A stretch of DNA of 64,000 nucleotides from a virus. Taxonomy: Duplodnaviria > Caudoviricetes. Under the pieces are notes generated by a model, which saw only the letters and a program-made list of their open reading frames with translations, did not search any database and was not told the origin of the DNA. Numbering within the stretch: position 1 is the stretch's first letter; every line of letters begins with the position of its first letter. The position numbers were made by a program, and so were the translations under genes. This document shows, in pieces, positions 20,519 through 49,542 of the stretch. The stretch covers positions 12,240 through 76,239 of IMG/VR virus record IMGVR_UViG_3300020463_000014; one strand, written 5' to 3'.

Positions 20519-21049
20519 ATGGAACAGATCATTTCAAACTTAGAAAATGTCTTTACCGATCTCGATAAAAAATTCATCAAAGGGCAAATTGAATGGGCCT
20601 TAGGACGGAAAGTAGCTCTTAAAGAATGGCGGATGGATAACATCCTCGGACATCCTTATGGCGCAAAAGTAAACGAAGGTTACAAAAATTGGGGTAGAGA
20701 TAGCTGGGGTTTCTACGAAGAAATGTTTCGGATTTGCGGTGGTAAAGGTCACTATAACACAATCACTCAAAATAACAATGCAGGAATTACTCAGATATTT
20801 GAAAAGAACTGCAAAAAAACAATTGAAGCAAGAAATGCTAAAGTAGCTAAAAAGCTGGAAAAATTTGGCATTACAGAAGTTAAAGACTCAAATATTTCTA
20901 AAACCTCAGATGGTTTTCACGGAGTCTTTAATGTAGAAACAGACAAAGGAAACAAGCGGATTGAAATCGATACAATCTTAGCTGGTGGATATAACATCCA
21001 ATGTCTCCACCTTCGTACTTTAGTAAAAATGAAAAAAGGAGTTTTATAA
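20519..21049 (+). CDS. Hypothetical early protein (C-terminal IxAGGYNIQCLHxR motif)
   Basis: 176 aa with a strong RBS. I recall this C-terminal motif from other phage hypothetical proteins; function unknown. Confidence 0.8.
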   Translation: MEQIISNLENVFTDLDKKFIKGQIEWALGRKVALKEWRMDNILGHPYGAKVNEGYKNWGRDSWGFYEEMFRICGGKGHYNTITQNNNAGITQIFEKNCKKTIEARNAKVAKKLEKFGITEVKDSNISKTSDGFHGVFNVETDKGNKRIEIDTILAGGYNIQCLHLRTLVKMKKGVL

Positions 21050-21294
21050 TGCAAGTCGTAACAGTTAGATTTACAGGATCGATGGTTGAACCATCACATC
21101 ACGATTGTCAAATCGTAGAAGGTTCTATGAATATGAGATATGATGTACGGAAAGATTCTTCCGCACTCGTATTATATGATGTACGAAAAGATGATATTAA
21201 TCCGCCAGTATGTAAAATTATCTCTCCATTTGGTAAAGATAATACATTAGAAGCATTTTATATGAATGAACAATGGAATTGTAACTTAGATTAA
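21049..21294 (+). CDS. Hypothetical protein (81 aa)
   Basis: The ATG overlaps the upstream stop (TAATG) and has an AAGGAG RBS, so this start is preferred over the track start at 21001. Confidence 0.65.
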   Translation: MQVVTVRFTGSMVEPSHHDCQIVEGSMNMRYDVRKDSSALVLYDVRKDDINPPVCKIISPFGKDNTLEAFYMNEQWNCNLD

Positions 21295-21307
21295 AAAAGA
21301 TAGTAAT

Positions 21308-21333
21308 AAAGAGCTCTTAGGAGCTCTTTTTTT
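21308..21333 (+). terminator. Rho-independent terminator, possibly bidirectional
   Basis: AAAGAGCTC-TTAG-GAGCTCTTT followed by a T run, at the point where the + operon and the - cluster converge. Confidence 0.7.
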
Positions 21334-21892
21334 GTTTAATAAAAATATCGACTGGAACAGCCAGTCTGAGATTAGAATGATATGTTTTTACTAGATGATA
21401 AACATATCCTGGCATAATTATTACATCACCAGTTTTAGGTGCGTACTCAATAGGTTTAAACATTTCGGCGGTTTTACCAAAATAACCTCTATTGGCATTT
21501 GCTCTTGGATCATATGACACTAGTTCTCCACCTTTATCAATATCATCAGAAAGAACATAAAATACTGCAGCAAATTGAGCTCCAGAATGATTATGAATAT
21601 TCATTGAATATCCCTTTTGAGATCCTGTTAACCAAGAACTAAATTCGTAAGACATATCATTTAGGTCGATACTAAATACTTCTTTAAAAAATTCTGAATA
21701 TTTTTCTATAGCCAAATCTTTTAACAATGGAATTTTATCTGTAAGTGAACCACTATCGTATTCAGCCTGTGGTTTCATAATATTAGTACTAAGTAAAATT
21801 TCTTGAACTAATTCTTCACATTGGTCTAAAGTAATTTGAGTTTTGTATATTGGTGTGGACCAACACTGATTAATACCCGATTTCAACATCAT
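21317..21892 (-). CDS. 2OG-Fe(II) oxygenase (TIGR02466 / 2OG-FeII_Oxy_5-like)
   Basis: HNHSGA...AVFYV...GGEL..YDPR...PGYVYHLV...R motif pattern. Confidence 0.85.
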   Translation of the reverse strand: MMLKSGINQCWSTPIYKTQITLDQCEELVQEILLSTNIMKPQAEYDSGSLTDKIPLLKDLAIEKYSEFFKEVFSIDLNDMSYEFSSWLTGSQKGYSMNIHNHSGAQFAAVFYVLSDDIDKGGELVSYDPRANANRGYFGKTAEMFKPIEYAPKTGDVIIMPGYVYHLVKTYHSNLRLAVPVDIFIKQKKSS

Positions 21893-22274
21893 AATATCCT
21901 TTTATGTCACGAACCATACCATGAATTACCATCAATGGCCAATCTATATTGTTAAGTATACTATCGTATATTTCCTTACTATTTTCGTATGTTTTAAAAT
22001 ATGGATCATTACCGGCTAAAAGCATTGGTTCATTTAACAAATCATAAAAATCTTCGTTAAAATCTCTACTAATCCAATAAGCATAACATATTGCTACAAC
22101 ATAACTCTTGGCTGGATATAACCACTCATCTACTTTCTCATTAAAGTGTCGAATAGCATTTTTAATAATGACCTCTTGATTATCGTCAAAAACTATTTCT
22201 ACTTTATTCAAATCATCTGTATGATTTTTATTTAATCTATGATAAACTTCTTGTTTAACTTGCCATTCTTTCAT
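21870..22274 (-). CDS. Hypothetical protein of the radical SAM cluster
   Basis: 134 aa, overlaps both neighbours, no recognisable motif. Confidence 0.75.
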   Translation of the reverse strand: MKEWQVKQEVYHRLNKNHTDDLNKVEIVFDDNQEVIIKNAIRHFNEKVDEWLYPAKSYVVAICYAYWISRDFNEDFYDLLNEPMLLAGNDPYFKTYENSKEIYDSILNNIDWPLMVIHGMVRDIKGYYDVEIGY

Positions 22275-23163
22275 GATACCAATCCAATAATCCTCTATAT
22301 CCGTTACAGCTATTATTTAAATCTTTGACATATCGATAATGCTCTGTTAAGCAGTTTCCAAAATACTTACATGAGGCGCATATAGGACTTATCATTTCTT
22401 CTTTTTCTTTGTTTGTCCAATCAATGTATTGTTTCCAAGAATCCAATTCAAGAAAGAATTCTTTATCCTCTTCATCAAATTCCAAGACACCAAATTTGCC
22501 AGAAGGAGTGATGTATATATGATCATCCGAAAATGCATTGTATCTTCCTTTCACTGATTCTATAATTCTATCTTCATTTACAAATTCAAACTTCATAGTG
22601 TCTTTTAACTTAAGCCACTTTATAACAAAATCTTCAAAGTCTTTGTGGGTCACGTTATGTGCATTTGCTTGATTTATTGAATATGGTTTAATCTCAACAG
22701 ATGTAATTGACGAGCACATATTCAACATATTAATCATTTCAGATACATCTTTTTCTAGCACCTTTGGAGAAGCTAAAATCAAAACTGCAATAGGTACTGT
22801 ACTCATTAACATATTATTAAATACAAGTTCAGACTTTTCTCTTGCTTCAAAATCATATGAGACAGAAAGATATACATCATCATCAAAAAAGCCTGGATGC
22901 ATCATAGAATAATTAGTATTGATGCTAATTTCACCTGAATAATATTTTCTTATAACATCTTTAATACCATAAAAATATGACTTTTTCATTGCACCAACTT
23001 CACCACCATATAAGTCAATATGTTCTATATCTGGCACTTGAGATAGCAACTCATCTAGTTTATCAAATGAAATTTGTTTCTGATCACCAAGTTGCTTAGT
23101 AGATAGGTAGCAAAAATCACATCTAAAATTACAAAAATATGAAGGATTGATCGATACAATCAT
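22255..23163 (-). CDS. Radical SAM protein with a truncated SPASM-like C-terminus
   Basis: CNFRCDFC (CxxxCxxC), YGGE motif, C-terminal CASCKYFGNC...C. Confidence 0.9.
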   Translation of the reverse strand: MIVSINPSYFCNFRCDFCYLSTKQLGDQKQISFDKLDELLSQVPDIEHIDLYGGEVGAMKKSYFYGIKDVIRKYYSGEISINTNYSMMHPGFFDDDVYLSVSYDFEAREKSELVFNNMLMSTVPIAVLILASPKVLEKDVSEMINMLNMCSSITSVEIKPYSINQANAHNVTHKDFEDFVIKWLKLKDTMKFEFVNEDRIIESVKGRYNAFSDDHIYITPSGKFGVLEFDEEDKEFFLELDSWKQYIDWTNKEKEEMISPICASCKYFGNCLTEHYRYVKDLNNSCNGYRGLLDWYHERMAS

Positions 23164-23774
23164 TACCTAGATGGAAAGGAAATATTCATTACTACTGCAA
23201 GTCTATCTTCTTCACCATAATAAGGAGTTACTTCATGCCATACATGTGCCGGAACAATAATAATTGTATTTTTTTCAGTCTCAATAGACATTTTAGATTT
23301 AGGTCTTGTTTTTATAACCTGGTTAAATGCTGGGTCATGAAAAATTAATTTGCCTCCATCTTTATCATTATCTACACAGTCTAAATAATAAACTGCAACC
23401 ATCGAAGCACCACTATGACAATGCAAACCTTTATAATCACCATTTCTCATAAAGGGTAATCTTCCGGTGGTCTGTTCCATACGTTCTAAAATTTCAGCAT
23501 GTGTAATTGATTCATCATATTCATTAGCTAGTTTTAAAAATGATTTCGCAAAAAAATCATATAAATTTTTTATTTCATTATAATTTTTAATATTATCATC
23601 GGTAAAAAGCGGAATGTGTACTCCATCATCTCCACCATCTTGATATGAAAGACCGGCCATAGCTAAATGATTTCTAAATATTGCTTGGCATACTGAATTA
23701 AGAGTACTACTTTCTTCTTCATTAATATTATGTAACTCATGTAACATTTTTATTGGAAAAATAGTTTTTATCAT
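23163..23774 (-). CDS. 2OG-Fe(II) oxygenase (TIGR02466 / 2OG-FeII_Oxy_5-like)
   Basis: HCHSGA..VAVYYL...GGKLIFHDP...PAHVWHEV...RLAVVMN. Confidence 0.85.
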   Translation of the reverse strand: MIKTIFPIKMLHELHNINEEESSTLNSVCQAIFRNHLAMAGLSYQDGGDDGVHIPLFTDDNIKNYNEIKNLYDFFAKSFLKLANEYDESITHAEILERMEQTTGRLPFMRNGDYKGLHCHSGASMVAVYYLDCVDNDKDGGKLIFHDPAFNQVIKTRPKSKMSIETEKNTIIIVPAHVWHEVTPYYGEEDRLAVVMNISFPSR

Positions 23775-24805
23775 GCGTATTCCCTCTCATACGGCGTCAA
23801 TTGTCTATCGATGCTATTTATACTGATTATATCAGTTGCTAAAGTCTTCATATGTTTACAATGATCTTCTACCATATTATGCTGTTTTAAATCTTTAATA
23901 GTTTTTTTACATCCATTACAAATTTCAAACATTGGACAAGTATAACACGCATTTTTTAAACTCATTAAACTTAAATCTGTTGCAAGAGGTGTTGAAAACC
24001 CACCACTCATTTCATAATCAAAATCAATAGCCTTATCTAAATCATCACCAAATGCACCACATGAATAGTAGTCACCTTCAGGTTGAAGTGTTCGAATGCC
24101 AGAATCACATGTTCTTGTCTGTGGACATATAGTAGATTCTCCTCTTAATCGTACCATCATCTGTTGAGTGTTATGTTCCCAATCGCTTAATCCAGCTTTC
24201 CATATTTCAACATAACGTTCATATATTTTTGATAATTGATATGGAGCAGACTGAGAACCTGATGCCATGGCATAATTTACTTTACAGACTACATCCATTT
24301 TTTTTGCAAGTTCAACTGTCTTAATATGAGTATCTTCATTCTCTTCAACAATCACTGCTATGAATGATGGTCTATATCCAACATGTTCTAGCATCGCATC
24401 TGAACACTTCCAAAAATCTTCTTCTGTAAACTCACTATAATCACCTTTTAATCTTCCTCCACCATATTGAAATGATGTAGCTACACCAATTCGAGGATGG
24501 TTAAAAAGTTCTTTCCATTTCATTGGTTTCATAAGAAATGGATATAAATTTGTTGTAAGTGATATTGTTGCCGGCAGATCATACTTATCAAGATACTCTA
24601 TAATTTTCCAATAGTAATTTGGTTTCATCATTAATGGATCGCCACCATTAACAATAATTGTTTGAGTATCTGGAAAACGTTTTAAAAACTTAAATATCTT
24701 ATTTAAATCAAGAGTAGCAGTATTATCTTCAAACGTAATTTTAGATGATGAACAAAATGAACATTTAAAATTACACAATTCTGTTGGTTTGACAATTAGG
24801 TCCAT
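23771..24805 (-). CDS. Radical SAM/SPASM protein (anSME/peptide-maturase-like)
   Basis: IVKPTELCNFKCSFC, NGGDPL, and a SPASM-type C...C...GDYYSC...CYTCPMFEICNGC...C. Confidence 0.92.
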   Translation of the reverse strand: MDLIVKPTELCNFKCSFCSSSKITFEDNTATLDLNKIFKFLKRFPDTQTIIVNGGDPLMMKPNYYWKIIEYLDKYDLPATISLTTNLYPFLMKPMKWKELFNHPRIGVATSFQYGGGRLKGDYSEFTEEDFWKCSDAMLEHVGYRPSFIAVIVEENEDTHIKTVELAKKMDVVCKVNYAMASGSQSAPYQLSKIYERYVEIWKAGLSDWEHNTQQMMVRLRGESTICPQTRTCDSGIRTLQPEGDYYSCGAFGDDLDKAIDFDYEMSGGFSTPLATDLSLMSLKNACYTCPMFEICNGCKKTIKDLKQHNMVEDHCKHMKTLATDIISINSIDRQLTPYEREYA

Positions 24806-25341
24806 GGCGAATTATTAACTTTAAACCCAAAATTCATAGTGATTCTATGCATATCTGGATCTCTGAAATGTTCAACTCTATGTTCAAACTGTTTATCTTG
24901 GCTTCCTACTACTACATCGTATTTTTGAGGTAAATGAAAGGCTGTGATTCTATTATTCTGTGATATATTTCTAAACATAATTTCACCACCAGCGTCTTTA
25001 TTCATATCAGTAAAATATAAAAGAAACATTATATTTGCACCTTCACAAAAATCATTATGCCAATTACACGAAGTTTGTTCAGTGCCATTCCAACAGTGAT
25101 AATAAATCAAATCTTTTTTTTCTGAATATGGTCTTAAATACTGATTAAAAAGATAATCAGCAGTCATTAGCATTTTCTTTCGCATACCCAATATATAATA
25201 ATTTAAAGGGAATCGATAATCTTTTCTATTACCAATACCTCTAAGCCATTTTATATTAGGAATAGTATCTTCTAAATATTGAAACGCTTGAACGTTATTT
25301 TCTGTGTAAAATCCATCATCCATTTTCCAACCATTTTTCAC
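24796..25341 (-). CDS. 2OG-Fe(II) oxygenase (prolyl-hydroxylase-like)
   Basis: WHND (HxD), LLYF...GGEI, HRVE and a distal Arg (RITMNF). Confidence 0.85.
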   Translation of the reverse strand: MKNGWKMDDGFYTENNVQAFQYLEDTIPNIKWLRGIGNRKDYRFPLNYYILGMRKKMLMTADYLFNQYLRPYSEKKDLIYYHCWNGTEQTSCNWHNDFCEGANIMFLLYFTDMNKDAGGEIMFRNISQNNRITAFHLPQKYDVVVGSQDKQFEHRVEHFRDPDMHRITMNFGFKVNNSPWT

Positions 25342-26483
25342 AGCATTTTTACCTTTTGTCTAAATCCATATGATAGATCATCTTCACCATCGCGTTTTGG
25401 TTTAAATCCTTTTGTTTTTTTAACGTAGTTAAACGTTTCTTTAAAAACACATTCTTCCATATCGTTATGATCACCTGGCATATCAGCTTTTACAAAGCAT
25501 GTGAATGGACAGTTTTCATAATATTCACACTCAAAACAATTATATTTTTTTAAAAACTTTTCTACCATCTCTCCTGTTTCAAAGGGTGTTTCACCAGTTT
25601 TTTTATCTCGCTGATATGCTACACCACAACATCCACCGGGTGATGAACCATCAGGCTGAATAGTTATTGAATTACCTCTTGTACACATCATTGCACCAGT
25701 TTGATTCAATGGATCATGAAACGCATCCATGTTTTCACAATCAGGATAGTTATCCACTAAGTATTTGTTAAACGCTAATAGCTCACTATCTTTAGGAATT
25801 AATTTTGCATCTGCTTTAATTAATGGTGATGGCATATAAGCATCAAAATCAACTGGAAAGTTTTTATACAAATAATCAAAAGTGCTTTTATCGTTACTCT
25901 TTATAATTGTTTGTATATTTTGGCTAGTAGTAACAATTGAAACGTTTCTAATATAATCTTTAAAAGTCTCAACATTTTCTAAGAATATTTCTAGTTGACC
26001 TTTATTAAATCTACCTCTTGGATCATAAGAAGTTGAAAGCTTTATATCATGCTTATTACAAAAGTCCATAACTTTATCTGAATTTTTTTTATCAAACATA
26101 AAATTAGTAAGATAATTAAAATAAATTCTTTTGTTGCCGATGTTAATCTTGGATCTAACTAAATTCATAAATTCTTCATATACATCTAAAAAGCCTTTTT
26201 CAATCCATAGATCTTCAAATAATTCTCCACCTAATAGATGTAATTTATAGTCTTTTGATCTTGGCGAATTGTTAATAAATTTAGCAACAGTATCGCTTTT
26301 TGCTAAAATTTCTTCTCGAGTAGCTCCAACCATTGAGTTATGATCTTGCGGACAGAACACACATTTTAAATTACAATGTTCAAAAAATATTATAACAAGC
26401 TCACTTGATCGAGTAATCTTGCTTCCTAAAATTTTGTATATATCAAAATCAAGTGGAGCTGGATTAATAGGTGCTACAGACAT
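25338..26483 (-). CDS. Radical SAM protein with a SPASM-like Cys-rich C-terminus
   Basis: CNLKCVFC, LGGE, C-terminal C...CC...CFECEYYENCPFTC...C. Confidence 0.9.
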   Translation of the reverse strand: MSVAPINPAPLDFDIYKILGSKITRSSELVIIFFEHCNLKCVFCPQDHNSMVGATREEILAKSDTVAKFINNSPRSKDYKLHLLGGELFEDLWIEKGFLDVYEEFMNLVRSKINIGNKRIYFNYLTNFMFDKKNSDKVMDFCNKHDIKLSTSYDPRGRFNKGQLEIFLENVETFKDYIRNVSIVTTSQNIQTIIKSNDKSTFDYLYKNFPVDFDAYMPSPLIKADAKLIPKDSELLAFNKYLVDNYPDCENMDAFHDPLNQTGAMMCTRGNSITIQPDGSSPGGCCGVAYQRDKKTGETPFETGEMVEKFLKKYNCFECEYYENCPFTCFVKADMPGDHNDMEECVFKETFNYVKKTKGFKPKRDGEDDLSYGFRQKVKML

Positions 26484-28144
26484 TCTTTACTTACCTCTGA
26501 CATAATTATATGTCTATTTTTTTCTATAAATTTATTTATAGTATTTGCTCTAAACTCTTGATTTAAAACTTTAATGCTTTTTGGTTGAGAATTTGGATTA
26601 AATATATCTCTTATTTCAGAATGTATATCATCCCATCTATCTAATTTACTTATAACTTCATATGCTTTTTTAGTAAAGACTGACGGTGATAGACTATTTT
26701 CAAGCATAGGATAAAAGTGCTGCAGTAAATAATTTCCAGCACTATTCATAAACCACATTTCATGCATTTCTTCAGTTGTAAACGAAAAGCATGATGATAT
26801 TGTTTTAAAATACGATTTTTTATTTTTATACAAATTATTCCAACTATCTATCCCTTGTTCATCTGCAATATCAGTGTAAACTTCAACGGTTCGAATATCA
26901 TATTTAATTTTATATTCCTGAGAATTAAGCGCTGAATCTGGAAGAAACATATAATCATGTCTGTAAGAACCAAACGATTTAAAATTCCAGATATATTCCA
27001 TTTCATTATAAAAGTCATCTATTGTAGAACCTGGCATTGCAAGGATCATTTCTAAATTAGGTATTGGAAACCCGTGCTTTGAACATTGCTCATTAATGTG
27101 TTTACTTAATTCTAATTTATCTTCTGTATTTAAATCAACTCTTTCAGCTATTTTCATTGCAATGTCAGAACTGCTTTGAATAGACACTGATGGAACTATC
27201 GATATATTGGCCATCTCACTCCACATATCTTTTCCATTTTTCATATTTGGAGAAGTATAATTTGTTCCAACGATTTCAAAATACTTATCAATTAATTTTT
27301 TTCTTCTATTTAAATCCTTAGATTTCATGGTAGAAATATCAGTTAAATTAAAACCATTTGTCCAAGCGTATTCGAATATTTCAAAGTCTCTTTCAAAAAA
27401 GGCTCCAAAGTTTGCATCATTTAAATAAGCAGATCTATAACCGGCTTTTAGCATAGCATTGATATCACGTTTCACTATGCCCAAGGATTTCTTATAAATC
27501 TTTGTATTAATACCTCCACCCCATTCGCAGAACACACACTTATAAGGACAACCTCTTGTCGTCTCTAAAACAATAAACGGTTCCATTTTATTATTACGAG
27601 CGTATTTAAGTAATTTTGTAAGATATTCTAAATGATCTTCGTATACTGAATAATCTTCTTTTGACAAATCATGTATTAATTTTACATCAGATCTTAATTC
27701 CCATGGAATACTTGTTGGATCTATTCTGTTTTCAATAAACTGATCGATAAGCTCAGCCATAAATGGCTCACCTGGTTTAGTAGGTCTACAAATTAAATCG
27801 TACTGAGGACGTGATGTTAATAGTTCTGGTTCATTGGTTCCAATATGTGGACCACCTAAAACTAGTATTTTTTCTGGATATTTATTTTTAATTTTATTAG
27901 AAATTTCATCACATATCATATAGTTCCAAGTATAAGAAGAAAACATAATTATATCTGCTTCGATTATATCATCTATTACTTCATCATAAGATTTATAGCT
28001 ATTCCATTTATATGGTGATTCTAACCACTTTACTTTTTTACTATATTTGCCAAAACGAGAATAGTAACTTTGCATTAATAAAAATGTAAAGTTATTTGCT
28101 AGTGACCAGTCAGCGTGAGGAGGATTAATAAATGCTATAATCAT
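26474..28144 (-). CDS. Radical SAM protein with an N-terminal cobalamin-binding-like domain (class B type)
   Basis: FSSYTWN...ILVLGGPH (B12-binding-like Rossmann segment), ETTRGCPYKCVFCEWG, DANFG, ILAMPGST. Confidence 0.85.
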   Translation of the reverse strand: MIIAFINPPHADWSLANNFTFLLMQSYYSRFGKYSKKVKWLESPYKWNSYKSYDEVIDDIIEADIIMFSSYTWNYMICDEISNKIKNKYPEKILVLGGPHIGTNEPELLTSRPQYDLICRPTKPGEPFMAELIDQFIENRIDPTSIPWELRSDVKLIHDLSKEDYSVYEDHLEYLTKLLKYARNNKMEPFIVLETTRGCPYKCVFCEWGGGINTKIYKKSLGIVKRDINAMLKAGYRSAYLNDANFGAFFERDFEIFEYAWTNGFNLTDISTMKSKDLNRRKKLIDKYFEIVGTNYTSPNMKNGKDMWSEMANISIVPSVSIQSSSDIAMKIAERVDLNTEDKLELSKHINEQCSKHGFPIPNLEMILAMPGSTIDDFYNEMEYIWNFKSFGSYRHDYMFLPDSALNSQEYKIKYDIRTVEVYTDIADEQGIDSWNNLYKNKKSYFKTISSCFSFTTEEMHEMWFMNSAGNYLLQHFYPMLENSLSPSVFTKKAYEVISKLDRWDDIHSEIRDIFNPNSQPKSIKVLNQEFRANTINKFIEKNRHIIMSEVSKECL

Positions 28145-28177
28145 ATTTCATTCTATACATTACAAATTAAAAAATAT

Positions 28178-29308
28178 TTAAACTGTTACATATTTAGCAA
28201 TAGTTGTTTTATCAGAAACAGAATTAGCATCCAGCAGTGAATGAATTAAATAATGATTTACAGTTTCAAGTTCTAATGCAAAGAATTTTTCAGGTTCTTT
28301 ATCATCTGATGATTCAATTAAAATAAGCTTATCTAATAGTTCATCTGTTAATTCAGTATTAATTGCTGGTAAGAATTCTAATATGCTATCATCTCTTAAA
28401 GTAAAATCAGACCATTGACTTTCTATAATAGCTACAAACTCTTTAATAGTATTAAGATCTGAATCAGAAATATTTTCGAATATTACATTATCACTACTAG
28501 AAGCGCCACTTAGATATTTTATAGACCACATATCGTCTTTAATAAACAGTTGAGCAAATTTAGAAGTATCTGTAAAAATGTCATTAATATTATTTAATGT
28601 GTAAGTTTTGTCTAAATTTAATTTATCAGCAAAAGATTTAGTTAAGAAATGTTGGAAAAATATTTCCTTTAATTCGTAAAGATATTGTTCAAACACTTTT
28701 TTCAGCAAAGGTCTGACTACGCCTTTTAACTCTGCTTTTGAAGATTTGTCATTAAGATAATTTGCTAGTAGATGTTCAACACTTATTGTGCTTTTATATT
28801 TTGCCATAAATGCTTTTTTCTTGGCAGCAGAAGGAGCTTTAACACTATCATAAATGGTATTGAAATTTTCTACTTTTAAAATTTCACCAGATCCTAATTT
28901 TGCATTATTACTTGAAAACCTGCCTCTAAAAAATGTATTAAATTTAAAAGCATGGGCTTTTACTAATGATTCTACTGAATCAACTTTCGGAGTTTTTAAA
29001 ATAAATTTATACCAAGTAGACATAATAAATTGAAATGCTGCACTATCACAATAAACAACGATTCTTTTATTTGTAGAATCACATTTGGCAGCTAATTCAT
29101 CAAAAAGAGTTGTAGCATCTTTAAACGTTTTATCTTTTCCTAGAATATCATTCCATTCAAGTCCATATGCAATGAGTTGACCAGATAATATTTTTTGAAG
29201 ATCTTCTAAAAGATTAAAACCGTTACTTTGCGATACAACAATACGATCAAAATTTGGATCGATGATATTATCTGTTGTTACATAAATCTTTTTAAACAGA
29301 TGTATCAT
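28178..29308 (-). CDS. Hypothetical protein of the radical SAM cluster
   Basis: 376 aa, ATGA-coupled to the upstream gene, no confident motif. Confidence 0.8.
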   Translation of the reverse strand: MIHLFKKIYVTTDNIIDPNFDRIVVSQSNGFNLLEDLQKILSGQLIAYGLEWNDILGKDKTFKDATTLFDELAAKCDSTNKRIVVYCDSAAFQFIMSTWYKFILKTPKVDSVESLVKAHAFKFNTFFRGRFSSNNAKLGSGEILKVENFNTIYDSVKAPSAAKKKAFMAKYKSTISVEHLLANYLNDKSSKAELKGVVRPLLKKVFEQYLYELKEIFFQHFLTKSFADKLNLDKTYTLNNINDIFTDTSKFAQLFIKDDMWSIKYLSGASSSDNVIFENISDSDLNTIKEFVAIIESQWSDFTLRDDSILEFLPAINTELTDELLDKLILIESSDDKEPEKFFALELETVNHYLIHSLLDANSVSDKTTIAKYVTV

Positions 29309-29952
29309 AACTGTTCTCCTGTGGCGATAGCGCTTGTTATTAAAAACATTGGGTTATTAACATTCGCCCAATAACTAAATAGATTATTTCCTTTAAACAT
29401 ATACTCATTAAAGTATGATTTATAATATGTTTTATGATGTTCAATTACATTGGCATAAAATAGATAAAAGCTTTCATATTTAAGTAAATTTACAAAATTT
29501 ATTCCAGTTAGATCTTTTGTGTCATCTTCTGGAAATGATTTAACATAGTCTTTTAATTCATCGCATTCAACTGTGTACAAATTATAAAGCGAAAGTGAAT
29601 CTAATTTCTTAGCCCAAGTAGTAAGTATTTCAACGTTATCATCAATAAAATCTTTTTCTATTAATTCACTAATACCTTTCATCTGTAATAATAAACTAAT
29701 TACTCTTTCTTCAAGGATAGGAATACTTATAATAAAATTAGCTAAAAGATATTCTCTAGTAAGATCATCAAAATCTTTTTGATCAGTAAAACCAATATTA
29801 CATGGCAATTCCAGATTACTGAGATATGTTAATAGCTTTGTTCCCTGCAATTGTGAATTTTCATAATCAACTATATAAAAAGTTTGATCATCTTCAAAAT
29901 ACAATTTCAAATCTTCAATACTAAATGGTGCAGTAACATCAATAACTTTCAT
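29305..29952 (-). CDS. Hypothetical acidic protein of the radical SAM cluster
   Basis: The ATG at 29952 overlaps the TGA of the 187-aa gene (ATGA), so it is preferred over the track start at 29976. Begins MKVIDVTAPF. Confidence 0.8.
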   Translation of the reverse strand: MKVIDVTAPFSIEDLKLYFEDDQTFYIVDYENSQLQGTKLLTYLSNLELPCNIGFTDQKDFDDLTREYLLANFIISIPILEERVISLLLQMKGISELIEKDFIDDNVEILTTWAKKLDSLSLYNLYTVECDELKDYVKSFPEDDTKDLTGINFVNLLKYESFYLFYANVIEHHKTYYKSYFNEYMFKGNNLFSYWANVNNPMFLITSAIATGEQL

Positions 29953-30512
29953 CTTCTTCCTCTCGAGCCATGGCAACTGCTATGACAACTTGCATGACAA
30001 ATATTAATATTTACAGTAACGGTATTGGAAACTAAATTATTAAAACGTGTCTGTAAGTCTGTAAATTTAGCTTCAAGACCAGAAGCACTAATTTGAGTAC
30101 CAGCAGTTAAAGTAACTCCAGCTGCAGATAACGTTTGTGCATAACTACTGTTTAAATAAGCTTTTGCTGTTTGATTAAAAATTTGTCCAGGATTAGGATA
30201 TGTTCCTGTATTACCACCAGGACCTGTTACTGTTCGAATTGCATTTAAATTTCTAATTTGACTATACGCAGCGGTTTCATTTTCAATTGCAGTATTGATA
30301 ACAGAAGCAGTGATTGGATTTTGATTTATATCAGCTCCAGTAATTCCAATGCTTCTACCAGCAGTTGTTCCACCAAAATATGATGTAGCAAATCCACTAA
30401 ACGGAACTGAATTGGTACCCCAAACAATACCAGAGTTTGCACTTGCCGGCGCAAAATCCGCAAATCTATCTATTATATTCTGTGCGTTAATTGGACTTGT
30501 TAATGTAGCCAT
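29949..30512 (-). CDS. Virion-like protein with a C-terminal (CHxS)3-RGRR motif; putative substrate/precursor of the cluster
   Basis: T/G/N/A/S-rich body. All Cys and His lie in the last 16 residues (CHASCHSSCHGSRGRR). Has a GAGGA RBS and its own TATAAATA promoter. The CDS is secure; the substrate role is inference. Confidence 0.75.
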   Translation of the reverse strand: MATLTSPINAQNIIDRFADFAPASANSGIVWGTNSVPFSGFATSYFGGTTAGRSIGITGADINQNPITASVINTAIENETAAYSQIRNLNAIRTVTGPGGNTGTYPNPGQIFNQTAKAYLNSSYAQTLSAAGVTLTAGTQISASGLEAKFTDLQTRFNNLVSNTVTVNINICHASCHSSCHGSRGRR

Positions 30513-30538
30513 TTCATTCCTCTTTTGTTATATACGTG

Positions 30539-30546
30539 TATTTATA
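30539..30546 (-). promoter_or_regulatory. T4-type late promoter TATAAATA internal to the cluster
   Basis: Exact motif overlapping the upstream rSAM stop codon, about 27 nt before the ATG at 30512. Confidence 0.7.
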
Positions 30547-31561
30547 CATGTTTTGCGAGTTCCATCATTAAACTTTTTGGTGCACCACAAATATCTCCAT
30601 CCCATCCTAATTGATGACAATCACCTCCACAAAATCTAGATACAGGGCAAGATAAACAATTAGGATTACGCATTTTTTCTTCTAATATAGTACGAATTCT
30701 TTTTGGACTTTTTAACAATGTATCAATTGAATCATCTAAACTTCCAAAAGCTTGTTCAGGCGCACTATTTGGGCAGCCTGCAATAGTTCCATCTCCATTT
30801 ATGGTAAATAGTTTTTGTTCACAATCTCTACAAAATGTTCCACACGTAGTCATAGTCTTTTCAAATTTGGCATATACATTTTCTAAAAAGTCATTTTCAA
30901 ACCAATCCCTTGCTCCGTGCTTTTCACTTTGCATGTGCATTTTTAAAAAATATTCATCAAGTTCTTTATTGCTTGGAAATATTTCTGATGCTTCTCGGGC
31001 ACTACCATTATTAGTTAGTCTTTCCAGTGAAACTTCTTGTACACCAAGTCGCCGGCACCATCTTAATAATACTATAGGATCTTTTGCAAGTGTATCTTTT
31101 GTAAGACTAATAAACAAACGAATAGTAACACCGTTTGCTAAAAGTGTTTTAACATTTTTATGCCAAAGATTATATTGGTTTTTATTTTCAAATCGAATCT
31201 TACGATCCCACGATGTGCCAAGTCTATTTCCAAGAGGACCTTTAATAAAATCCATATGTTGATCTTTTAATTTGAAAACTAAATTAGTTGTAGCACCCCA
31301 CGACATTTGATTCCATAAACCATCACATGCATCATATACCTTTCGCATTTGGCCAACCGGTACAAGAAACGGTTCACCACCATGAAATTCCATATGTATA
31401 GAATCTTGTGTTGCAGGTTTTTCTTTTCTAAATCTATGAATCCAGTCAACTAGCTTATCAGTATTCCAATAAATCTTTTGACCGCTTCTTCCACTGGTAA
31501 AACAGTGTGCACAATTAAGCTGACATGTTTCTGTTGTTTTGAGATACATCAGCCAGTTCAT
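30542..31561 (-). CDS. Radical SAM/SPASM protein (anSME/peptide-maturase-like)
   Basis: YLKTTETCQLNCAHC, FHGGEP, SPASM CRDC...GTIAGCPN...CLSCPVSRFCGGDC...C. Confidence 0.93.
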   Translation of the reverse strand: MNWLMYLKTTETCQLNCAHCFTSGRSGQKIYWNTDKLVDWIHRFRKEKPATQDSIHMEFHGGEPFLVPVGQMRKVYDACDGLWNQMSWGATTNLVFKLKDQHMDFIKGPLGNRLGTSWDRKIRFENKNQYNLWHKNVKTLLANGVTIRLFISLTKDTLAKDPIVLLRWCRRLGVQEVSLERLTNNGSAREASEIFPSNKELDEYFLKMHMQSEKHGARDWFENDFLENVYAKFEKTMTTCGTFCRDCEQKLFTINGDGTIAGCPNSAPEQAFGSLDDSIDTLLKSPKRIRTILEEKMRNPNCLSCPVSRFCGGDCHQLGWDGDICGAPKSLMMELAKHV

Positions 31562-32042
31562 TATTAATTTTATCCTCTGTATAATTTTCTAAACCAAAGC
31601 TTAACGTCAATGCTTCATCTTTATTTAATGCTTGATGAGGTGTATAAGCTGGTATATGTATATATTCTCCTTGGATAATAGTCACTGGCTTATTATCAAT
31701 TATTAAAGATTTAGATCCTTCACAGCAATATATAACAACATCATCTGGATCAGTATGCATATCGAAAGAATAAGATCCAGCCGCTGCAAAAAATAAATGA
31801 CATGTTACATGCTGTTCATGTTTCCAATCAGTTTTTATTTTCCAACAATATTCATATATTGTTGAATTAAAGTTTTCCATACGTTCGATTTTTATAGAAT
31901 GGTTTTGTTTTTGCACTTTGCAAAAATCACTGAAACTAGTAATTAGCTGTTCACGACCCTGTTCATCTATAGCATAAACCATATTTTGTTCATACATATG
32001 ACTCGCAGTAAGTGCAGATATGAGTTGAGATTTATTAATCAT
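31515..32042 (-). CDS. JmjC/cupin-4-like oxygenase
   Basis: SFDMHTDPDDV (HxD), EGSK, YIHIPAYTPHQA and LSFG, the pattern of ROX/YcfD-type JmjC cupins. Confidence 0.8.
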   Translation of the reverse strand: MINKSQLISALTASHMYEQNMVYAIDEQGREQLITSFSDFCKVQKQNHSIKIERMENFNSTIYEYCWKIKTDWKHEQHVTCHLFFAAAGSYSFDMHTDPDDVVIYCCEGSKSLIIDNKPVTIIQGEYIHIPAYTPHQALNKDEALTLSFGLENYTEDKINNELADVSQNNRNMSA

Positions 32043-32048
32043 TATTTA

Positions 32049-32077
32049 ATTATATACTATTTTTAATCAAATGTAAA
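32049..32077 (-). promoter_or_regulatory. Sigma70-like promoter at the head of the cluster; probably gives a leaderless transcript
   Basis: TTTACA-17 nt-TATAAT on the minus strand. Only 6 nt separate the -10 from the ATG at 32042, and there is no RBS. Confidence 0.7.
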
Positions 32078-32084
32078 TAGTTAT

Positions 32085-33644
32085 TTACACTTTAAGGATA
32101 CATTCTATCAATTTTTCTTCATCTACAGTAGACGATTCTAAAGCTACACCTACCATCATAGCTCCATTAAATTCTTTACTTGCTCGGCCATTATGGTGTG
32201 TATATACTGGATCACCTTTATGAACTCCACCAATAACCCTTACTGGAACTCTTCCCTTAAGACCTAAAGCTTGACCAGGAGCGTCTGCATTCATTAAATA
32301 AGCAGGTTGAGCTGAAATTACGCCGACTGGAATTCCGCTTGATGTGCAAGGAGTAGTTTCTTCAGTTTTATTAAATGACGCCATCATTACTGTTCCAACT
32401 GGATGCTCTTCACTTGTAGTATATTTTTCTGCAAGGTCAGCATAATTTGCAGTTTGAGCATTACCAGCAACTGTACCGGCAGATAATGTTTGTGTTGATG
32501 GATTATACATTAAATGCCCATTATCAGTATCAATATAAGGTCTTTGATAACCTGTACCATTATTATCGCTAAATAATACTTGGTAATTTACATCGTCATT
32601 TTTTTCATCAACTTTTACAAAATCGGCCTCGCCTCCAGAAACTGTACAAGCACCAGTATTTGCCATTGTAACATGACCAGATAATGCTGCAGTAGTAAAA
32701 CCTGAGCCATTACCAATTAGAATTTGAGTGTCTGCTACTATAATATCTGAAGGATCTGATGCTGAAGAACTATTTCCAACTTTTACTGAATTTGCTGGCA
32801 TATTAGCAAGCTTATCATTAGTCACAGCATCATCAGTTATTTGACCTGTTATTACTTGTCCTGCCTGAATACCTCCAGATGCTTGGCGACCAATTACAGT
32901 ATTAGTTCCTGCTTGTACAGAGCCAATATCACCAGCAGCTGATCTACCAATAACTGAATGATCTGGTATTGCTAAATCTCCTGGATCACCACTAGTACCT
33001 GCCTGGCGAGTTTTTATTGTATATCCTGCCATATTAGCAAGCTTAGCATTAGTTACTTGATCATCTGATATCATATCAGTTTGAATTTGCACTTCTTCAA
33101 CTGTGCCCGCTGTTGTTTTGCCAAGAACTCTATTTGCAGTTACAATGTCTTGCATTTTATCATAGGTCACAACATCAGGCTGAATTGTGACCACGCCGGC
33201 GTTTGTCATAAGAACATCTTGAGATAAAGCGGTAGATGTAAAACCAGTTCCATTACCAATTAAAATTTGTTCGTTAGTAACTGCCTTATTTGATGATGCT
33301 CCAGTAGTTCCTGCATCTCTTACTTTAACAGTGTTTGCTGGCATATCTTCTAATTTAAGACCAGATGCTTCTTGAGTTAAACCGTGACCACCTGCTACTG
33401 AAAATGTTCCACTTGAATCTCCAGTAAGGTTTCCACCAACGCTAGTCTTTAAAATTCCATTTCCTGCATTATAGTTTCTTCGCACTGCTTTACTAAAATT
33501 TAAGGCTGTTACTATACTTGAATCATGGCCAGCATAGTCACTACTAAGATTATCTAGATCACCGATCTGAGCAGCAATAGTATTAGATTTTACTCTAAAA
33601 GTGTTAATTGTATCACTTAAATTTATAACTGTCTGTCTAGCCAT
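32085..33644 (-). CDS. Tail fibre-like protein with a C-terminal intramolecular-chaperone/peptidase G2-like domain
   Basis: Internal repeats (VTNxKLANM; ILIGNGxGFTxxALS) and C-terminal YADLAEKY...GVISAQPAYLMN...LKGRVPVRVIGGVHKGD. Confidence 0.75.
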   Translation of the reverse strand: MARQTVINLSDTINTFRVKSNTIAAQIGDLDNLSSDYAGHDSSIVTALNFSKAVRRNYNAGNGILKTSVGGNLTGDSSGTFSVAGGHGLTQEASGLKLEDMPANTVKVRDAGTTGASSNKAVTNEQILIGNGTGFTSTALSQDVLMTNAGVVTIQPDVVTYDKMQDIVTANRVLGKTTAGTVEEVQIQTDMISDDQVTNAKLANMAGYTIKTRQAGTSGDPGDLAIPDHSVIGRSAAGDIGSVQAGTNTVIGRQASGGIQAGQVITGQITDDAVTNDKLANMPANSVKVGNSSSASDPSDIIVADTQILIGNGSGFTTAALSGHVTMANTGACTVSGGEADFVKVDEKNDDVNYQVLFSDNNGTGYQRPYIDTDNGHLMYNPSTQTLSAGTVAGNAQTANYADLAEKYTTSEEHPVGTVMMASFNKTEETTPCTSSGIPVGVISAQPAYLMNADAPGQALGLKGRVPVRVIGGVHKGDPVYTHHNGRASKEFNGAMMVGVALESSTVDEEKLIECILKV

Positions 33645-33876
33645 TTGATTCTACCATTTTCTTTGTTATTTGCGCCAGCATTTGTTTTATTTCGCTTACA
33701 TCATTTTTCAACTCGGCAAGTTCTTTTTCTTTTTCAGCATCTAATTTTTTCTTCATTCTAGCTCTATTAATAGCATCACTATTAATATTTAATATAGCAC
33801 CACTATTTAAATCTTTAACTAAATTGGGATGGCCCTGAATTTTTATACTGTTTATTTTACTTTTCAATTTAAACAC
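33637..33876 (-). CDS. Small conserved T4-like hypothetical protein (coiled-coil C-terminus)
   Basis: GHPNLVKDLNSGAILN...ELKNDVSEIKQML, in the position typical downstream of VrlC-like genes. Confidence 0.75.
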   Translation of the reverse strand: MFKLKSKINSIKIQGHPNLVKDLNSGAILNINSDAINRARMKKKLDAEKEKELAELKNDVSEIKQMLAQITKKMVESNG

Positions 33877-49532: not shown

Positions 49533-49542
49533 AACTTATCTC

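What the first reader, a model, noticed from the sequence alone, without database searches (positions are those of the whole stretch)
29949..30512. Candidate substrate: fibre-like protein ending in CHAS-CHSS-CHGS-RGRR
Seen: the only small-residue-rich, non-enzyme-like protein in the cluster. All three Cys and all three His lie in the last 16 aa (29952-29999) as a perfect 4-residue period, C-H-x-S three times, followed by RGRR. The body has two I(T/S)AS-helix segments reminiscent of phage fibre/collar proteins. Established: His-Xaa-Ser repeats are the motif of the HxsA/B/C radical SAM system, aromatic-x-x triplets are triceptide cyclophane sites, and regularly spaced Cys are thioether donors in ranthipeptides. 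Inference: a RiPP-like core fused to a roughly 170-aa structural carrier, which could display a cross-linked and possibly metal-binding tip on the virion. Alternative: an unmodified Cys/His metal site.
Basis: partly seen in the sequence, partly recalled or inferred. Interest (0 to 1): 0.9.

Follow-up and report, generated by a model that had tools for sequence, protein, structure and literature searches.

The report
Enzyme-modified Cys/His tail on phage protein
A small late protein of a marine T4-like phage ends in a nearly invariant 16-residue Cys-His-x-Ser/Arg tail that is always encoded beside radical-SAM enzymes, in hundreds of phages and in predatory bacteria, so it is probably an unstudied enzyme-finished part of the machinery that attacks the prey cell surface.

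Summary
ORF 29949-30512 (-) encodes 187 aa ending CHAS-CHSS-CHGS-RGRR, and all Cys and His lie there.

The tail is far from chance:
- 138 of the 150 best family representatives end in it.
- Over 65 distant homologues the tail is 95% identical and the body 51%.

The "fibre-like" reading is not supported. The body folds as a compact alpha/beta domain with no known fold.

The "radical SAM substrate" reading is strongly supported by context. A motif-only DNA scan and a maturase-only scan find each other almost every time: 74 of 80 maturase loci have the tail gene, and the other 6 are cut by contig ends.

The same roughly 12-gene cassette occurs in three settings:
- marine T4-like phages;
- cultured jumbo phages (Atu_ph07, Phosso, RSL2, DT01);
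- Bdellovibrionota chromosomes without phage genes, often near pilin-headed S74 fibre genes.

The cassette holds 4-5 radical SAMs, cupin/2OG oxygenases and three proteins of no known family.

No curated family cut-off is met. The closest analogues are the HXS system and anSME.

The chemistry and the presence in virions remain untested. This scan met the same family before on other genomes. I call it a new variant of a known kind.

The parts
29949..30512 (-). CH-tail protein gene, 187 aa: alpha/beta body of unknown fold (residues 1-171) plus C-terminal tail
   Evidence: ORF; fold; family of 603 clusters at 50% identity with E<=1e-3.
29952..29999 (-). Tail coding stretch: (Cys-His-x-Ser)x3-Arg-Gly-Arg-Arg, the proposed modified core
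   Evidence: Low pLDDT extension after the last beta-strand.
30539..30546 (-). TATAAATA box (T4-type late-promoter consensus, as recalled), followed by a GAGGA ribosome-binding site before the ATG
   Evidence: The same box lies within 80 nt upstream of CH-tail genes in 27 of 121 distinct viral upstream regions, against 1 of 121 in an in-gene control. Window-wide the box is at chance level: 14 found, 15.6 expected.
30542..31561 (-). SPASM radical SAM enzyme, 339 aa, the proposed primary maturase
   Evidence: CxxxCxxC and a full SPASM Cys pattern read in the translation. TIGR04085 SPASM domain 35.7 bits against cut-off 27. phrog_1802. Profile aligns full length with anSME 4k37 at 38 bits. A CH-tail gene lies downstream in 74 of 80 homologue loci.
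31515..32042 (-). Cupin/JmjC-like protein, 175 aa, first gene of the cupin-rSAM-CH-tail trio
   Evidence: Cupin_2 32.4 bits and JmjC_2 30.5 bits. Same gene order in Atu_ph07, RSL2, DT01 and Phosso.
29305..29952 (-). Conserved partner of no known family, 215 aa from the ATG that overlaps the CH-tail stop codon (ATGA)
   Evidence: (overlap), phrog_20767. A homologue lies within 2.5 kb in 85 of 119 viral motif loci. AF2 pLDDT 89.5 with no fold match.
28178..29308 (-). Conserved unknown protein, 376 aa
   Evidence: No family. Syntenic in phage loci. Proteins of about 364 aa with a similar N-terminal start occupy the same place in Bdellovibrionota.
26474..28144 (-). B12-binding-domain radical SAM enzyme, 556 aa, an optional cassette member
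   Evidence: KedN5-like, 80 bits against cut-off 700. No match to it in the stretches read of Atu_ph07 and RSL2. Present in 1 of 5 Bdellovibrionota regions.
25338..26483 (-). Radical SAM enzyme, 381 aa
   Evidence: Homologue in 5 of 5 Bdellovibrionota regions.
24796..25341 (-). Probable 2OG-oxygenase-like protein, 181 aa (weak)
   Evidence: PADLOC 2OG model 22.2 bits; Pfam 2OG-FeII_Oxy_4 E 0.074.
23771..24805 (-). SPASM radical SAM enzyme, 344 aa
   Evidence: Homologue in 4 of 5 Bdellovibrionota regions.
23163..23774 (-). 2OG-Fe(II) oxygenase, 203 aa
   Evidence: PF13759, 40 bits.
22255..23163 (-). Radical SAM enzyme, 302 aa
   Evidence: PF04055, 29.8 bits. Homologue in 4 of 5 Bdellovibrionota regions.
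21870..22274 (-). Conserved unknown protein, 134 aa
   Evidence: No family. Homologue in 4 of 5 Bdellovibrionota regions.
21317..21892 (-). 2OG-Fe(II) oxygenase, 191 aa
   Evidence: PF13759, 40.9 bits.
32085..33644 (-). Tail-fibre-like protein, 519 aa, directly upstream of the cassette (context, not shown to be part of it)
   Evidence: DUF5907 repeat. phrog_19602 tail fiber and phrog_22593. A relative lies in 60 of 119 viral motif loci.

Best explanation
The 187-aa protein is the dedicated protein substrate of a mobile maturation cassette of about 12 genes.

Its folded alpha/beta body has a conserved N-terminal helix and never occurs without the tail. I take the body to be a built-in carrier and recognition domain. 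Its exposed C-terminal tail, (Cys-His-x-Ser)x3-Arg-Gly-Arg-Arg, is chemically rewritten in the cytoplasm.

The SPASM radical SAM enzyme encoded immediately upstream abstracts hydrogen at or next to the Cys residues. That would give thioether cross-links or oxidised Cys. The other three or four radical SAM enzymes and the cupin/2OG oxygenases add further changes.

The protein is not cut into a free peptide, because the cassette has no protease or exporter. It acts whole and late in infection, together with the receptor-binding fibre apparatus of the phage. In predatory bacteria it acts with pilin-headed S74 fibres. Its likely role there is a metal-binding or reactive tip or adaptor.

Shown: the motif, its conservation, the body fold prediction, the enzyme classes and the co-occurrence.

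Inferred: that the tail is modified, which residues are modified and how, that the protein stays whole, and that it sits on the virion or fibre.
For: 1. Tail invariance against a diverging body. The tail is 95% identical and the body 51% over 65 homologues. 138 of the 150 best representatives of 603 clusters end in the strict tail.

2. Motif-first scan, blind to the body.
- Of 119 viral stretches, 97 hold a radical SAM gene in the fetched DNA and 83 hold the rSAM339 type within 1.5 kb.
- Of the 22 without one, 15 are the tandem ~127-aa type.
- 4 of 5 such contigs tested hold an rSAM339 homologue elsewhere.

3. Enzyme-first scan. 74 of the 80 best rSAM339-homologue loci carry a strict CH-tail ORF downstream on the same strand. 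The 6 others end about 300 nt or less after the enzyme.

4. The same trio cupin-rSAM-CH-tail occurs in 4 of 4 cultured jumbo-phage lineages inspected. The enzymes are only 41-51% identical and the bodies were not found by BLAST.

5. The cassette is present in Bdellovibrionota.
- 27 of the 39 confirmed genome loci bear titles naming Bdellovibrionota lineages.
- Some sit on contigs of 1.3-2.8 Mb.
- Five 20-kb regions showed no match to this window's phage genes other than the cassette itself.
- The substrate must therefore lie inside the cassette.

6. Precursor-like behaviour. There are tandem duplicated CH-tail genes and tails with four or many repeats.

7. The adjacent enzyme has the full SPASM signature. 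Its profile aligns end to end only with anSME, a maturase of whole proteins.

8. Precedent. The HXS system matures a 214-aa HxS-repeat protein with two rSAMs and a small partner (PMC13128918, abstract and sections 9-10 read).

9. Fibre context.
- The cassette lies between baseplate and fibre genes here.
- A fibre-like gene lies in 60 of 119 viral loci.
- Pilin-like/S74 fibre genes lie near the cassette in at least 8 Bdellovibrionota loci.
- A late-promoter box is enriched upstream, 27 of 121 against 1 of 121.
Against: - No chemistry was observed. Nothing here shows that the tail is modified.
- Every characterised rSAM family is missed by a wide margin (28-52 bits against cut-offs of 268-450), so the reaction type is a guess.
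- 4-5 rSAMs plus 3-4 oxygenases is a lot of enzymology for 16 residues. Other substrates cannot be excluded, for instance a small molecule or the unknown 215-, 376- and 134-aa proteins.
- 22 of 119 motif loci showed no rSAM in the DNA fetched, and 1 of 5 tandem-type contigs showed none at all, though it is a fragment with CheckV completeness 22%.
- The late-promoter box is absent upstream in 94 of 121 regions, and window-wide it is at chance frequency.
- Virion presence rests on one sentence of the Atu_ph07 paper. The table that would show it is closed.
- Much of the co-occurrence comes from related phages, so the counts overstate the number of independent events. The independent lineages are few: marine T4-like, Atu_ph07/Phosso, RSL2 group, DT01, Bdellovibrionota, and single contigs assigned to Firmicutes and Bacteroidota.
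Confidence: 0.6

Rival explanations
1. The tail is an unmodified Cys/His metal site (Zn, Fe or Cu) on a small structural or adaptor protein. The neighbouring enzymes act on something else, such as fibre proteins, a glycan or a small molecule.
For: Three Cys and three His in 12 residues make a plausible metal ligand set. Phage fibre and spike tips are known to bind Fe or Zn through His/Cys (recalled: T4 gp37 HxH sites, PAAR tips; not tested here). A weak ZrgA-like zinc-uptake hit lies beside one Bdellovibrionota cassette (24.5 bits, below cut-off 27.4). No modification was observed.
Against: - A plain metal site does not explain the invariant Ser, Gly and Arg positions.
- It does not explain the near-obligate pairing with a SPASM maturase in both directions.
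- Tandem duplicate genes and variable repeat numbers are typical of enzyme substrates.
- In Bdellovibrionota the cassette travels without any large fibre gene inside it, so another protein substrate is not obvious.
Confidence: 0.15
2. The protein is an accessory of the enzymes and not their substrate. It would be an Fe-S cluster carrier, an electron donor or a scaffold that serves the 4-5 radical SAM enzymes. The tail would bind a cluster through Cys/His.
For: Each rSAM needs one to three [4Fe-4S] clusters and a reductant. Marine T4-like viral genomes with many rSAM genes also carry Fe-S assembly genes (PMC5332604, passages read). Cys3/His ligation of Fe-S clusters is known (recalled).
Against: - CxxxCxxxC on a disordered C-terminal tail ending in RGRR is not a known cluster-carrier motif (recalled).
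- No Fe-S assembly family matched.
- Duplicated genes with diverged bodies and 4-to-many repeats fit substrates better than cofactor carriers.
- The gene sits behind a late-promoter box, apart from the enzymes.
Confidence: 0.07
3. It is a true RiPP. The body is a giant leader, and the modified 16-residue tail is cut off and released as a free peptide (metallophore, toxin or signal).
For: The core lies C-terminal to a recognition domain, as in RiPP precursors. Long protein-like leaders exist (proteusins, PMC10858898, abstract seen in the listing). The conserved N-terminal helix could be a leader element.
Against: - I found no protease, exporter or immunity gene inside the cassette, in the window or in five Bdellovibrionota regions compared with the window's proteins. 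An M10-like peptidase lies outside one cassette.
- The body is a well-folded, conserved domain that never occurs without the tail.
- The gene lies in a virion fibre module behind a late-promoter box.
Confidence: 0.08

Closest known systems
HXS antiphage system (HxsA matured by rSAM enzymes HxsB/HxsC with HxsD; PMC13128918, abstract and sections 9-10 read)
   Same: A whole protein of about 200 aa, not a short peptide, carries short His-x-Ser repeats rich in basic residues. It is matured by more than one radical SAM enzyme plus a small partner of unknown fold. The modification maps to a Ser/His motif in the last repeat. The tail here contains H-x-S three times.
   Different: - No NCBIfam model matches the CH-tail protein even at E<=10.
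- HxsB and HxsC models score 34.8 and 27.7 bits against cut-offs of 370 and 267.9.
- Here each repeat begins with an invariant Cys and sits at the extreme C-terminus.
- There is no peptidoglycan-binding domain.
- The cassette has 4-5 rSAMs plus oxygenases.
- The hosts are phages and Bdellovibrionota. The paper reports HXS as 99.7% Pseudomonadota and as a defence against phages.
Anaerobic sulfatase-maturating enzyme (anSME/AtsB) acting on sulfatases
   Same: It is a small SPASM rSAM without a separate recognition domain that modifies a Cys in a whole protein. It is the only solved enzyme that aligns with the maturase profile over its full length (4k37, residues 11-318 against 12-333). The last repeat, C-H-x-S-R, recalls the sulfatase motif C-x-[PA]-x-R (motif recalled).
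   Different: - The score is low (38 bits; TIGR03942 42.6 against cut-off 349).
- The +2 position is never Pro among the six commonest residues, and is Ala in 5 of 175.
- There are three repeats, not one site.
- There is no sulfatase domain.
Ranthipeptide/sactipeptide maturases (PapB, CteB/SCIFF)
   Same: They are SPASM rSAMs that link regularly spaced Cys thiols to nearby residues. PapB and CteB appear among the weak matches.
   Different: PapB scores 41.3 bits against cut-off 340. CteB matches only the N-terminal core. As recalled, those precursors are short peptides with leader and RRE recognition. Here the bodies are 82-364 aa, and I found no RRE-type family: u223, u376 and u134 match nothing.
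CXXX-repeat rSAM target systems (NCBIfam TIGR04115 maturase; Pfam 38.1 PF27846 'tSAM_targ_Cxxx_rpt')
   Same: The concept is the same: Cys every fourth residue as the target of a SPASM maturase. An Atlas cluster near this protein (score 0.79, a lead only) has PF27846 on 25% of its members and is 67% viral.
   Different: TIGR04115 matches only residues 8-66 of the maturase, at 37.8 bits against cut-off 350. PF27846 is not in the Pfam copy at hand, so membership could not be tested. No paper on such a system was found.
Bdellovibrio MAT fibres and phage S74-chaperone fibres (PMC10769870, passages read)
   Same: Trimeric S74-terminated fibres are the prey- or host-recognition adhesins of both predators and phages. 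S74-domain genes lie near the cassette in Bdellovibrionota, and a fibre gene lies beside it in the phage.
   Different: The CH-tail protein itself is not a fibre. The neighbouring S74 proteins are short (320-413 aa) with pilin-like N-termini. The paper describes MATs as about 1000 aa with a signal peptide, and it mentions neither radical SAM nor pilin.

Membership tests
HXS system (HxsA/B/C/D) | Effector matches the HxsA family model and carries a peptidoglycan-binding domain | tested here: not met
   No NCBIfam family for P0001 at E<=0.01. None but noise at E<=10 for 7 diverse CH-tail proteins. No Pfam domain. No PADLOC hit.
HXS system (HxsA/B/C/D) | Maturases are HxsB and HxsC equivalogs | tested here: not met
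   TIGR03978 scores 34.8 bits (cut-off 370). TIGR03977 scores 27.7 bits (cut-off 267.9).
HXS system (HxsA/B/C/D) | Tandem His-x-Ser repeats in the matured protein | tested here: met
   H-A-S, H-S-S and H-G-S in the tail. Ser is conserved in 140-155 of 175 proteins.
anSME-sulfatase pair | Maturase reaches the anSME equivalog score | tested here: not met
   TIGR03942 scores 42.6 bits against cut-off 349.45. PDB 4k37 scores 38 bits, though full length.
anSME-sulfatase pair | Substrate motif C/S-x-P/A-x-R in a sulfatase domain (motif recalled) | tested here: not met
   The last repeat is C-H-[G/S/T/N/C/A]-S-R. Ala occurs in 5 of 175, and Pro is not among the six commonest residues. No sulfatase domain.
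Ranthipeptides / SCIFF | PapB/CteB-type maturase and a short precursor with leader | tested here: not met
   PapB scores 41.3 bits against cut-off 340. Complete CH-tail ORFs are 82-364 aa, median 187.
CXXX-repeat rSAM target system | Maturase reaches the TIGR04115 score | tested here: not met
   37.8 bits against cut-off 350, over residues 8-66 only.
CXXX-repeat rSAM target system | Target matches Pfam PF27846 | not testable with these tools
   The family is absent from the local Pfam library. The only lead is a neighbouring Atlas cluster with 25% of members carrying it.
Phage tail fibre / collar protein | Elongated trimeric beta-helix, coiled coil or known fibre domain | tested here: inconclusive
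   The monomer model is a compact alpha/beta domain. No fibre family in Pfam or PHROGs. No fold match. The oligomeric state was not tested.
SPASM radical SAM enzymes (the adjacent maturase) | CxxxCxxC plus the C-terminal SPASM Cys pattern | tested here: met
   Both patterns are read in the translation. TIGR04085 scores 35.7 bits against cut-off 27. The Cys columns are invariant in 33 homologues.

The most novel reading that the evidence does not exclude
Viruses and predatory bacteria share one cassette. It builds a new Cys/His-derived cross-linked, metal-binding or reactive group on the end of a small adaptor protein. This group would arm their receptor-binding fibres (phage tail fibres, pilin-headed S74 fibres). 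It would be a post-translational 'warhead' for attacking the Gram-negative envelope, and the first radical-SAM-matured virion protein.
Probability: 0.25. Interest if true: 0.9.

Novelty: new variant of a known kind. Interest (0 to 1): 0.78.

Why it matters
Radical SAM gene clusters in large phages have been noted for 15 years, in Campylobacter phages, marine T4-like genomes and pelagimyophage host-recognition clusters. They have been read as 'metabolic' genes (PMC2853527, PMC5332604, PMC7029224; passages read).

This analysis gives them a concrete, testable substrate. It is a small protein family of 603 clusters at 50% identity, whose invariant tail travels with the enzymes through unrelated phages and into predatory bacteria.

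If the tail is modified, three things follow:
- It would be an enzyme-finished component of the host-attack apparatus.
- It would be a new radical SAM chemistry on Cys-His-x-Ser repeats.
- It would be a molecular link between phage adsorption and bacterial predation.

Cultured phages that carry it make the test practical, for example Agrobacterium phage Atu_ph07.

Tried and rejected
- tblastn of the protein and megablast of the 9.9-kb cluster against the phage collection found nothing. Relatives were reached through the maturase instead.
- Complex prediction of the CH-tail protein with the 215-aa partner gave no verdict (scores 0.01 and 0.00, mark 0.32, controls not run). It is no evidence either way.
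- Fold searches found no solved relative for either model. For the CH-tail body: Foldseek PDB best E 1.3 and VIA wide best Z 3.5. For the partner: best E 0.25 and best Z 4.8 over 54 residues. This does not show that the folds are new.
- The Atlas search gave no usable hit for the partner.
- PADLOC gave only generic viperin-type rSAM similarity.
- Relaxed Pfam and NCBIfam scans gave noise only.
- PF27846 is not in the local library.
- RNA-library contigs of two marine studies cover nearly all of 21000-34000 at 90-99% identity. Contigs cannot rank genes or prove transcription, so I draw no conclusion on expression.
- Literature searches found no paper that describes this protein or treats the cassette as an enzyme-substrate system. 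Subscription journals and supplements are not covered. In particular, Table S5 of PMC6102473 (virion proteome) could show whether gp170 is in particles.
- I considered a heme c site (CxxxCH) and rejected it. I found no signal peptide or cytochrome family, and the context is rSAM; this rests on recall.
- I considered that the Bdellovibrionota hits are mis-binned phage contigs. I rejected this for contigs of 1.3-2.8 Mb whose flanks match none of this window's phage genes. It is likely true for the contigs labelled Marinovum, Rickettsiales, Methanobacteriota and Rhodobacteraceae, which show phage synteny.
Full report
**What is there.** The ORF at 29949-30512 on the minus strand encodes 187 residues ending ...NINICHASCHSSCHGSRGRR. 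Pfam and NCBIfam give no family. One PHROG (35144) matches only residues 162-187, end to end with the C-terminus of its profile. This was the first sign that the tail is conserved more widely than the body.

**Setting.** The window is a 32% G+C fragment of a T4-like marine myovirus: baseplate wedge and hub proteins, gp32, and giant fibre-like ORFs. The gene lies in a run of minus-strand genes between a 519-aa fibre-like protein and a 4508-aa ORF. In order, the run holds:
- a cupin/JmjC-like protein;
- a SPASM radical SAM enzyme (339 aa);
- the CH-tail protein;
- two unknown proteins (215 and 376 aa);
- a B12-domain radical SAM enzyme;
- three more radical SAM enzymes (381, 344 and 302 aa);
- two clear and one weak 2OG-type oxygenases;
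- an unknown 134-aa protein.

A TATAAATA box and a GAGGA site precede the CH-tail gene. Its stop codon overlaps the ATG of the 215-aa gene. Window-wide the box is no commoner than chance (14 found, 15.6 expected). Yet it lies within 80 nt upstream of CH-tail genes in 27 of 121 distinct viral upstream regions, against 1 of 121 in an in-gene control.

**The family.**
- A word-indexed search gave 405 proteins at E<=1e-3 among 646 candidates, and 120 were listed. All are 186-195 aa, and 118 of 120 end in CHxxCHxxCHxxRxRR.
- A profile search of 1.84 billion cluster representatives gave 603 at E<=1e-3.
- Of the best 150, 138 end in the strict tail. Ten carry a near-variant, a cut tail or a read-through tail. 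Two have none, and one of those is a 91-aa fragment. So the body practically never occurs without the tail.
- Over 65 homologues that are 51-63% identical overall, the body is 51% identical to the query and the tail 95%.

**The body is not a fibre.** AlphaFold2 on a 71-sequence alignment gives a compact alpha/beta domain (pLDDT 85.7, pTM 0.80). The tail is a low-confidence extension after the last strand. Foldseek against the PDB finds nothing (best E 1.3). The wider aligner's best Z is 3.5. In the viral model library the only matches at E<=0.001 are uncharacterised phage proteins. One is a 296-aa Atu_ph07 protein (E 3.8e-7), the length of gp170. So bodies that BLAST cannot connect appear to share a fold. 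Across phage and bacterial classes the N-terminus keeps a helix motif, roughly I/V-x-R-F-x-x-V followed by W-[GH]-x-[GN]-N-x-P. The ~127-aa tandem class looks different.

**Co-occurrence, from the tail side.**
- I scanned for the back-translated tail plus stop codon, with no information about the body. My own estimate, an inference, is that far less than one match is expected by chance in 596 Gb. The reversed pattern gave 0 matches in five genomes.
- The genome collection gave 47. I dropped four as low-complexity CH or CR runs (L134, L136, L139, L164). I dropped four more because no ORF ending in the motif was confirmed (L135, L138, L156, L167). That leaves 39.
- The 175 distinct proteins span 82-364 aa with a median of 187. 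There are classes of about 127 aa (usually tandem pairs), 187, 257 and 296 aa, and a few tails with four or many repeats.
- Of the 119 viral loci, 97 hold a radical SAM gene in the DNA fetched. 83 hold the rSAM339 type within 1.5 kb, and 85 hold the 215-aa partner within 2.5 kb.
- Of the 22 without a radical SAM gene, 15 are tandem ~127-aa loci and 7 are single. For five tandem-type contigs I searched the whole record, and four hold an rSAM339 homologue elsewhere. The fifth is a fragment.
- Of the 39 genome loci, 34 hold a radical SAM gene.

**Co-occurrence, from the enzyme side.** A profile of 33 rSAM339 homologues found at least 366 relatives in viral contigs. Of the best 80 loci (61-99% identical), 74 carry a strict CH-tail ORF downstream on the same strand. 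The other six all end about 300 nt or less after the enzyme. In the annotated phage collection the enzyme has 15 matching records. All are jumbo phages of Agrobacterium, Sinorhizobium, Ralstonia, Burkholderia and Pseudomonas, at 41-51% identity. I read four lineages: Atu_ph07, RSL2, DT01 and Phosso. All four have the order cupin, rSAM, then a gene of 178-306 aa ending in the same tail.

**Cellular version.**
- 27 of the 39 genome loci are labelled as Bdellovibrionota lineages, some on contigs of 1.3, 2.4 and 2.8 Mb.
- In five 20-kb regions, homologues of rSAM339 and rSAM381 are present in 5 of 5. Homologues of rSAM344, rSAM302, the 134-aa protein and the 215-aa partner are present in 4 of 5. 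The 2OG oxygenase is present in 3 of 5, the cupin in 2 of 5 and the B12 enzyme in 1 of 5.
- CH-tail genes are single or doubled.
- Outside the cassette, nothing matched this window's phage genes.
- The cassette is therefore self-contained, and its substrate should be one of its own products.
- In two of these regions, genes 2-3 kb from the cassette edge encode 320-413-aa proteins with a pilin-like N-terminus and a C-terminal Peptidase_S74 chaperone domain (E about 1e-13 for two of them and 6e-9 for the third). One of them has a weak N_methyl match below Pfam's cut-off.
- Similar genes lie in six more of the 8-kb Bdellovibrionota loci.
- S74-terminated trimeric fibres are the prey-recognition adhesins of Bdellovibrio (PMC10769870, passages read). 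That paper mentions neither radical SAM nor pilin.

**What the enzymes say.** The adjacent enzyme has CxxxCxxC and the full SPASM cysteine pattern (translation; TIGR04085 above its cut-off; Cys columns invariant). All named families are missed by a wide margin: DynA 45.7 bits against cut-off 450, anSME 42.6 against 349, PapB 41.3 against 340, CXXX-repeat 37.8 against 350, HxsB 34.8 against 370. Against solved structures, only anSME aligns over the full length, at 38 bits. The 215-aa partner folds confidently (pLDDT 89.5) but matches no known fold. It is not recognisably an RRE-type domain.

**Reading.** The invariant tail, the obligate pairing with a SPASM maturase in both directions, the duplications and repeat-number variation, and the self-contained cellular cassette together make the protein the likely substrate (about 0.75). 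I found no protease or exporter in the cassette, and the folded body is always present. These points favour a matured whole protein over a released peptide. The fibre-module position, the late-promoter box, the S74 fibre neighbours in predators and the Atu_ph07 virion cluster 'CDS 170-215' (PMC6102473, passages read) point to a role with the host- or prey-recognition apparatus (about 0.5). For the combined statement I give 0.6. The chemistry is open: thioether rings, formylglycine, or something like the +8 Da change in HxsA.

**Comparison with what is known.**
- The closest characterised analogue in logic is the HXS defence system. There, two rSAMs and a small partner mature a 214-aa HxS-repeat protein (PMC13128918, abstract and sections 9-10 read).
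- The closest enzyme is anSME.
- Membership fails for both, and for ranthipeptide and CXXX-repeat maturases.
- A Pfam 38.1 family named for rSAM targets with Cxxx repeats (PF27846) appears on a quarter of a neighbouring Atlas cluster. It could not be tested. If it covers this tail, curators have already flagged the idea in a database.
- Papers on Campylobacter phages, marine viral genomes, pelagimyophages and the Burkholderia/Ralstonia jumbo phages list the radical SAM, cupin and 2OG genes. They do not propose a substrate.
- Nine literature searches found no description of the protein.

**Earlier notes of this scan.** After I had formed this reading, a look-up showed that the same family had been followed up on five other genomes, with similar conclusions. 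A first-reader note on the promoter led me to check the TATAAATA box. A note on pilus genes, together with my own view of pilin-like N-termini, led.

Noticed in passing
L187:2165-3406, L189:16493-17563, L189:18008-18970 (Bdellovibrionota): Short proteins (320-413 aa) combine a type-IV-pilin-like N-terminus with a C-terminal Peptidase_S74 fibre-chaperone domain. They lie 2-3 kb from the cassette. Similar genes occur in L137, L143, L146, L159, L165 and L178. This is an unusual pilin-fibre chimera.
   Followed up: partly
L014, L039, L047, L048, L052, L066 and other viral loci: Tandem pairs of ~127-aa CH-tail genes with diverged bodies lie next to a fibre-like gene. One 151-kb contig (G010) holds two rSAM339 paralogues (84% and 45% identical to the window's). 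This suggests two cassettes or substrate classes in one phage.
   Followed up: partly
L161 (Dysosmobacter contig), L046, L162, L170: Expanded tails. L046, L162 and L170 have four CHxS repeats. The Firmicute-assigned contig has a run of about a dozen CHxS units broken by short NV(P)V linkers.
   Followed up: no
L141, L142, L179, L150/L160/L177 (genome contigs): Contigs binned as Marinovum, Rickettsiales, Methanobacteriota archaeon and Rhodobacteraceae carry the phage-type synteny (fibre and giant structural genes). They are probably phage contigs mis-binned into MAGs.
   Followed up: partly
window 30542-31561 compared with 32085-39142, in L001-L010: Among close relatives the maturase stays 94-99% identical while the neighbouring fibre-like genes fall to 48-88%. 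The enzymes are conserved inside a fast-evolving host-recognition region.
   Followed up: no
L189:13594-14871: A 425-aa protein beside a Bdellovibrionota cassette has a weak ZrgA (zinc uptake) match (24.5 bits, below cut-off 27.4). This is a possible metal link.
   Followed up: no
window 6130-19656 and 1-4704: Giant minus-strand ORFs of 4508 aa and more than 1568 aa flank the cassette. A Gly_rich_2-domain protein lies at 4744-6117.
   Followed up: no
window 44254-50649: The gp5-like hub functions appear spread over three genes: an N-terminal hub domain (368 aa), an amidase (744 aa), and a hub/lysozyme-like 1015-aa protein.
   Followed up: no
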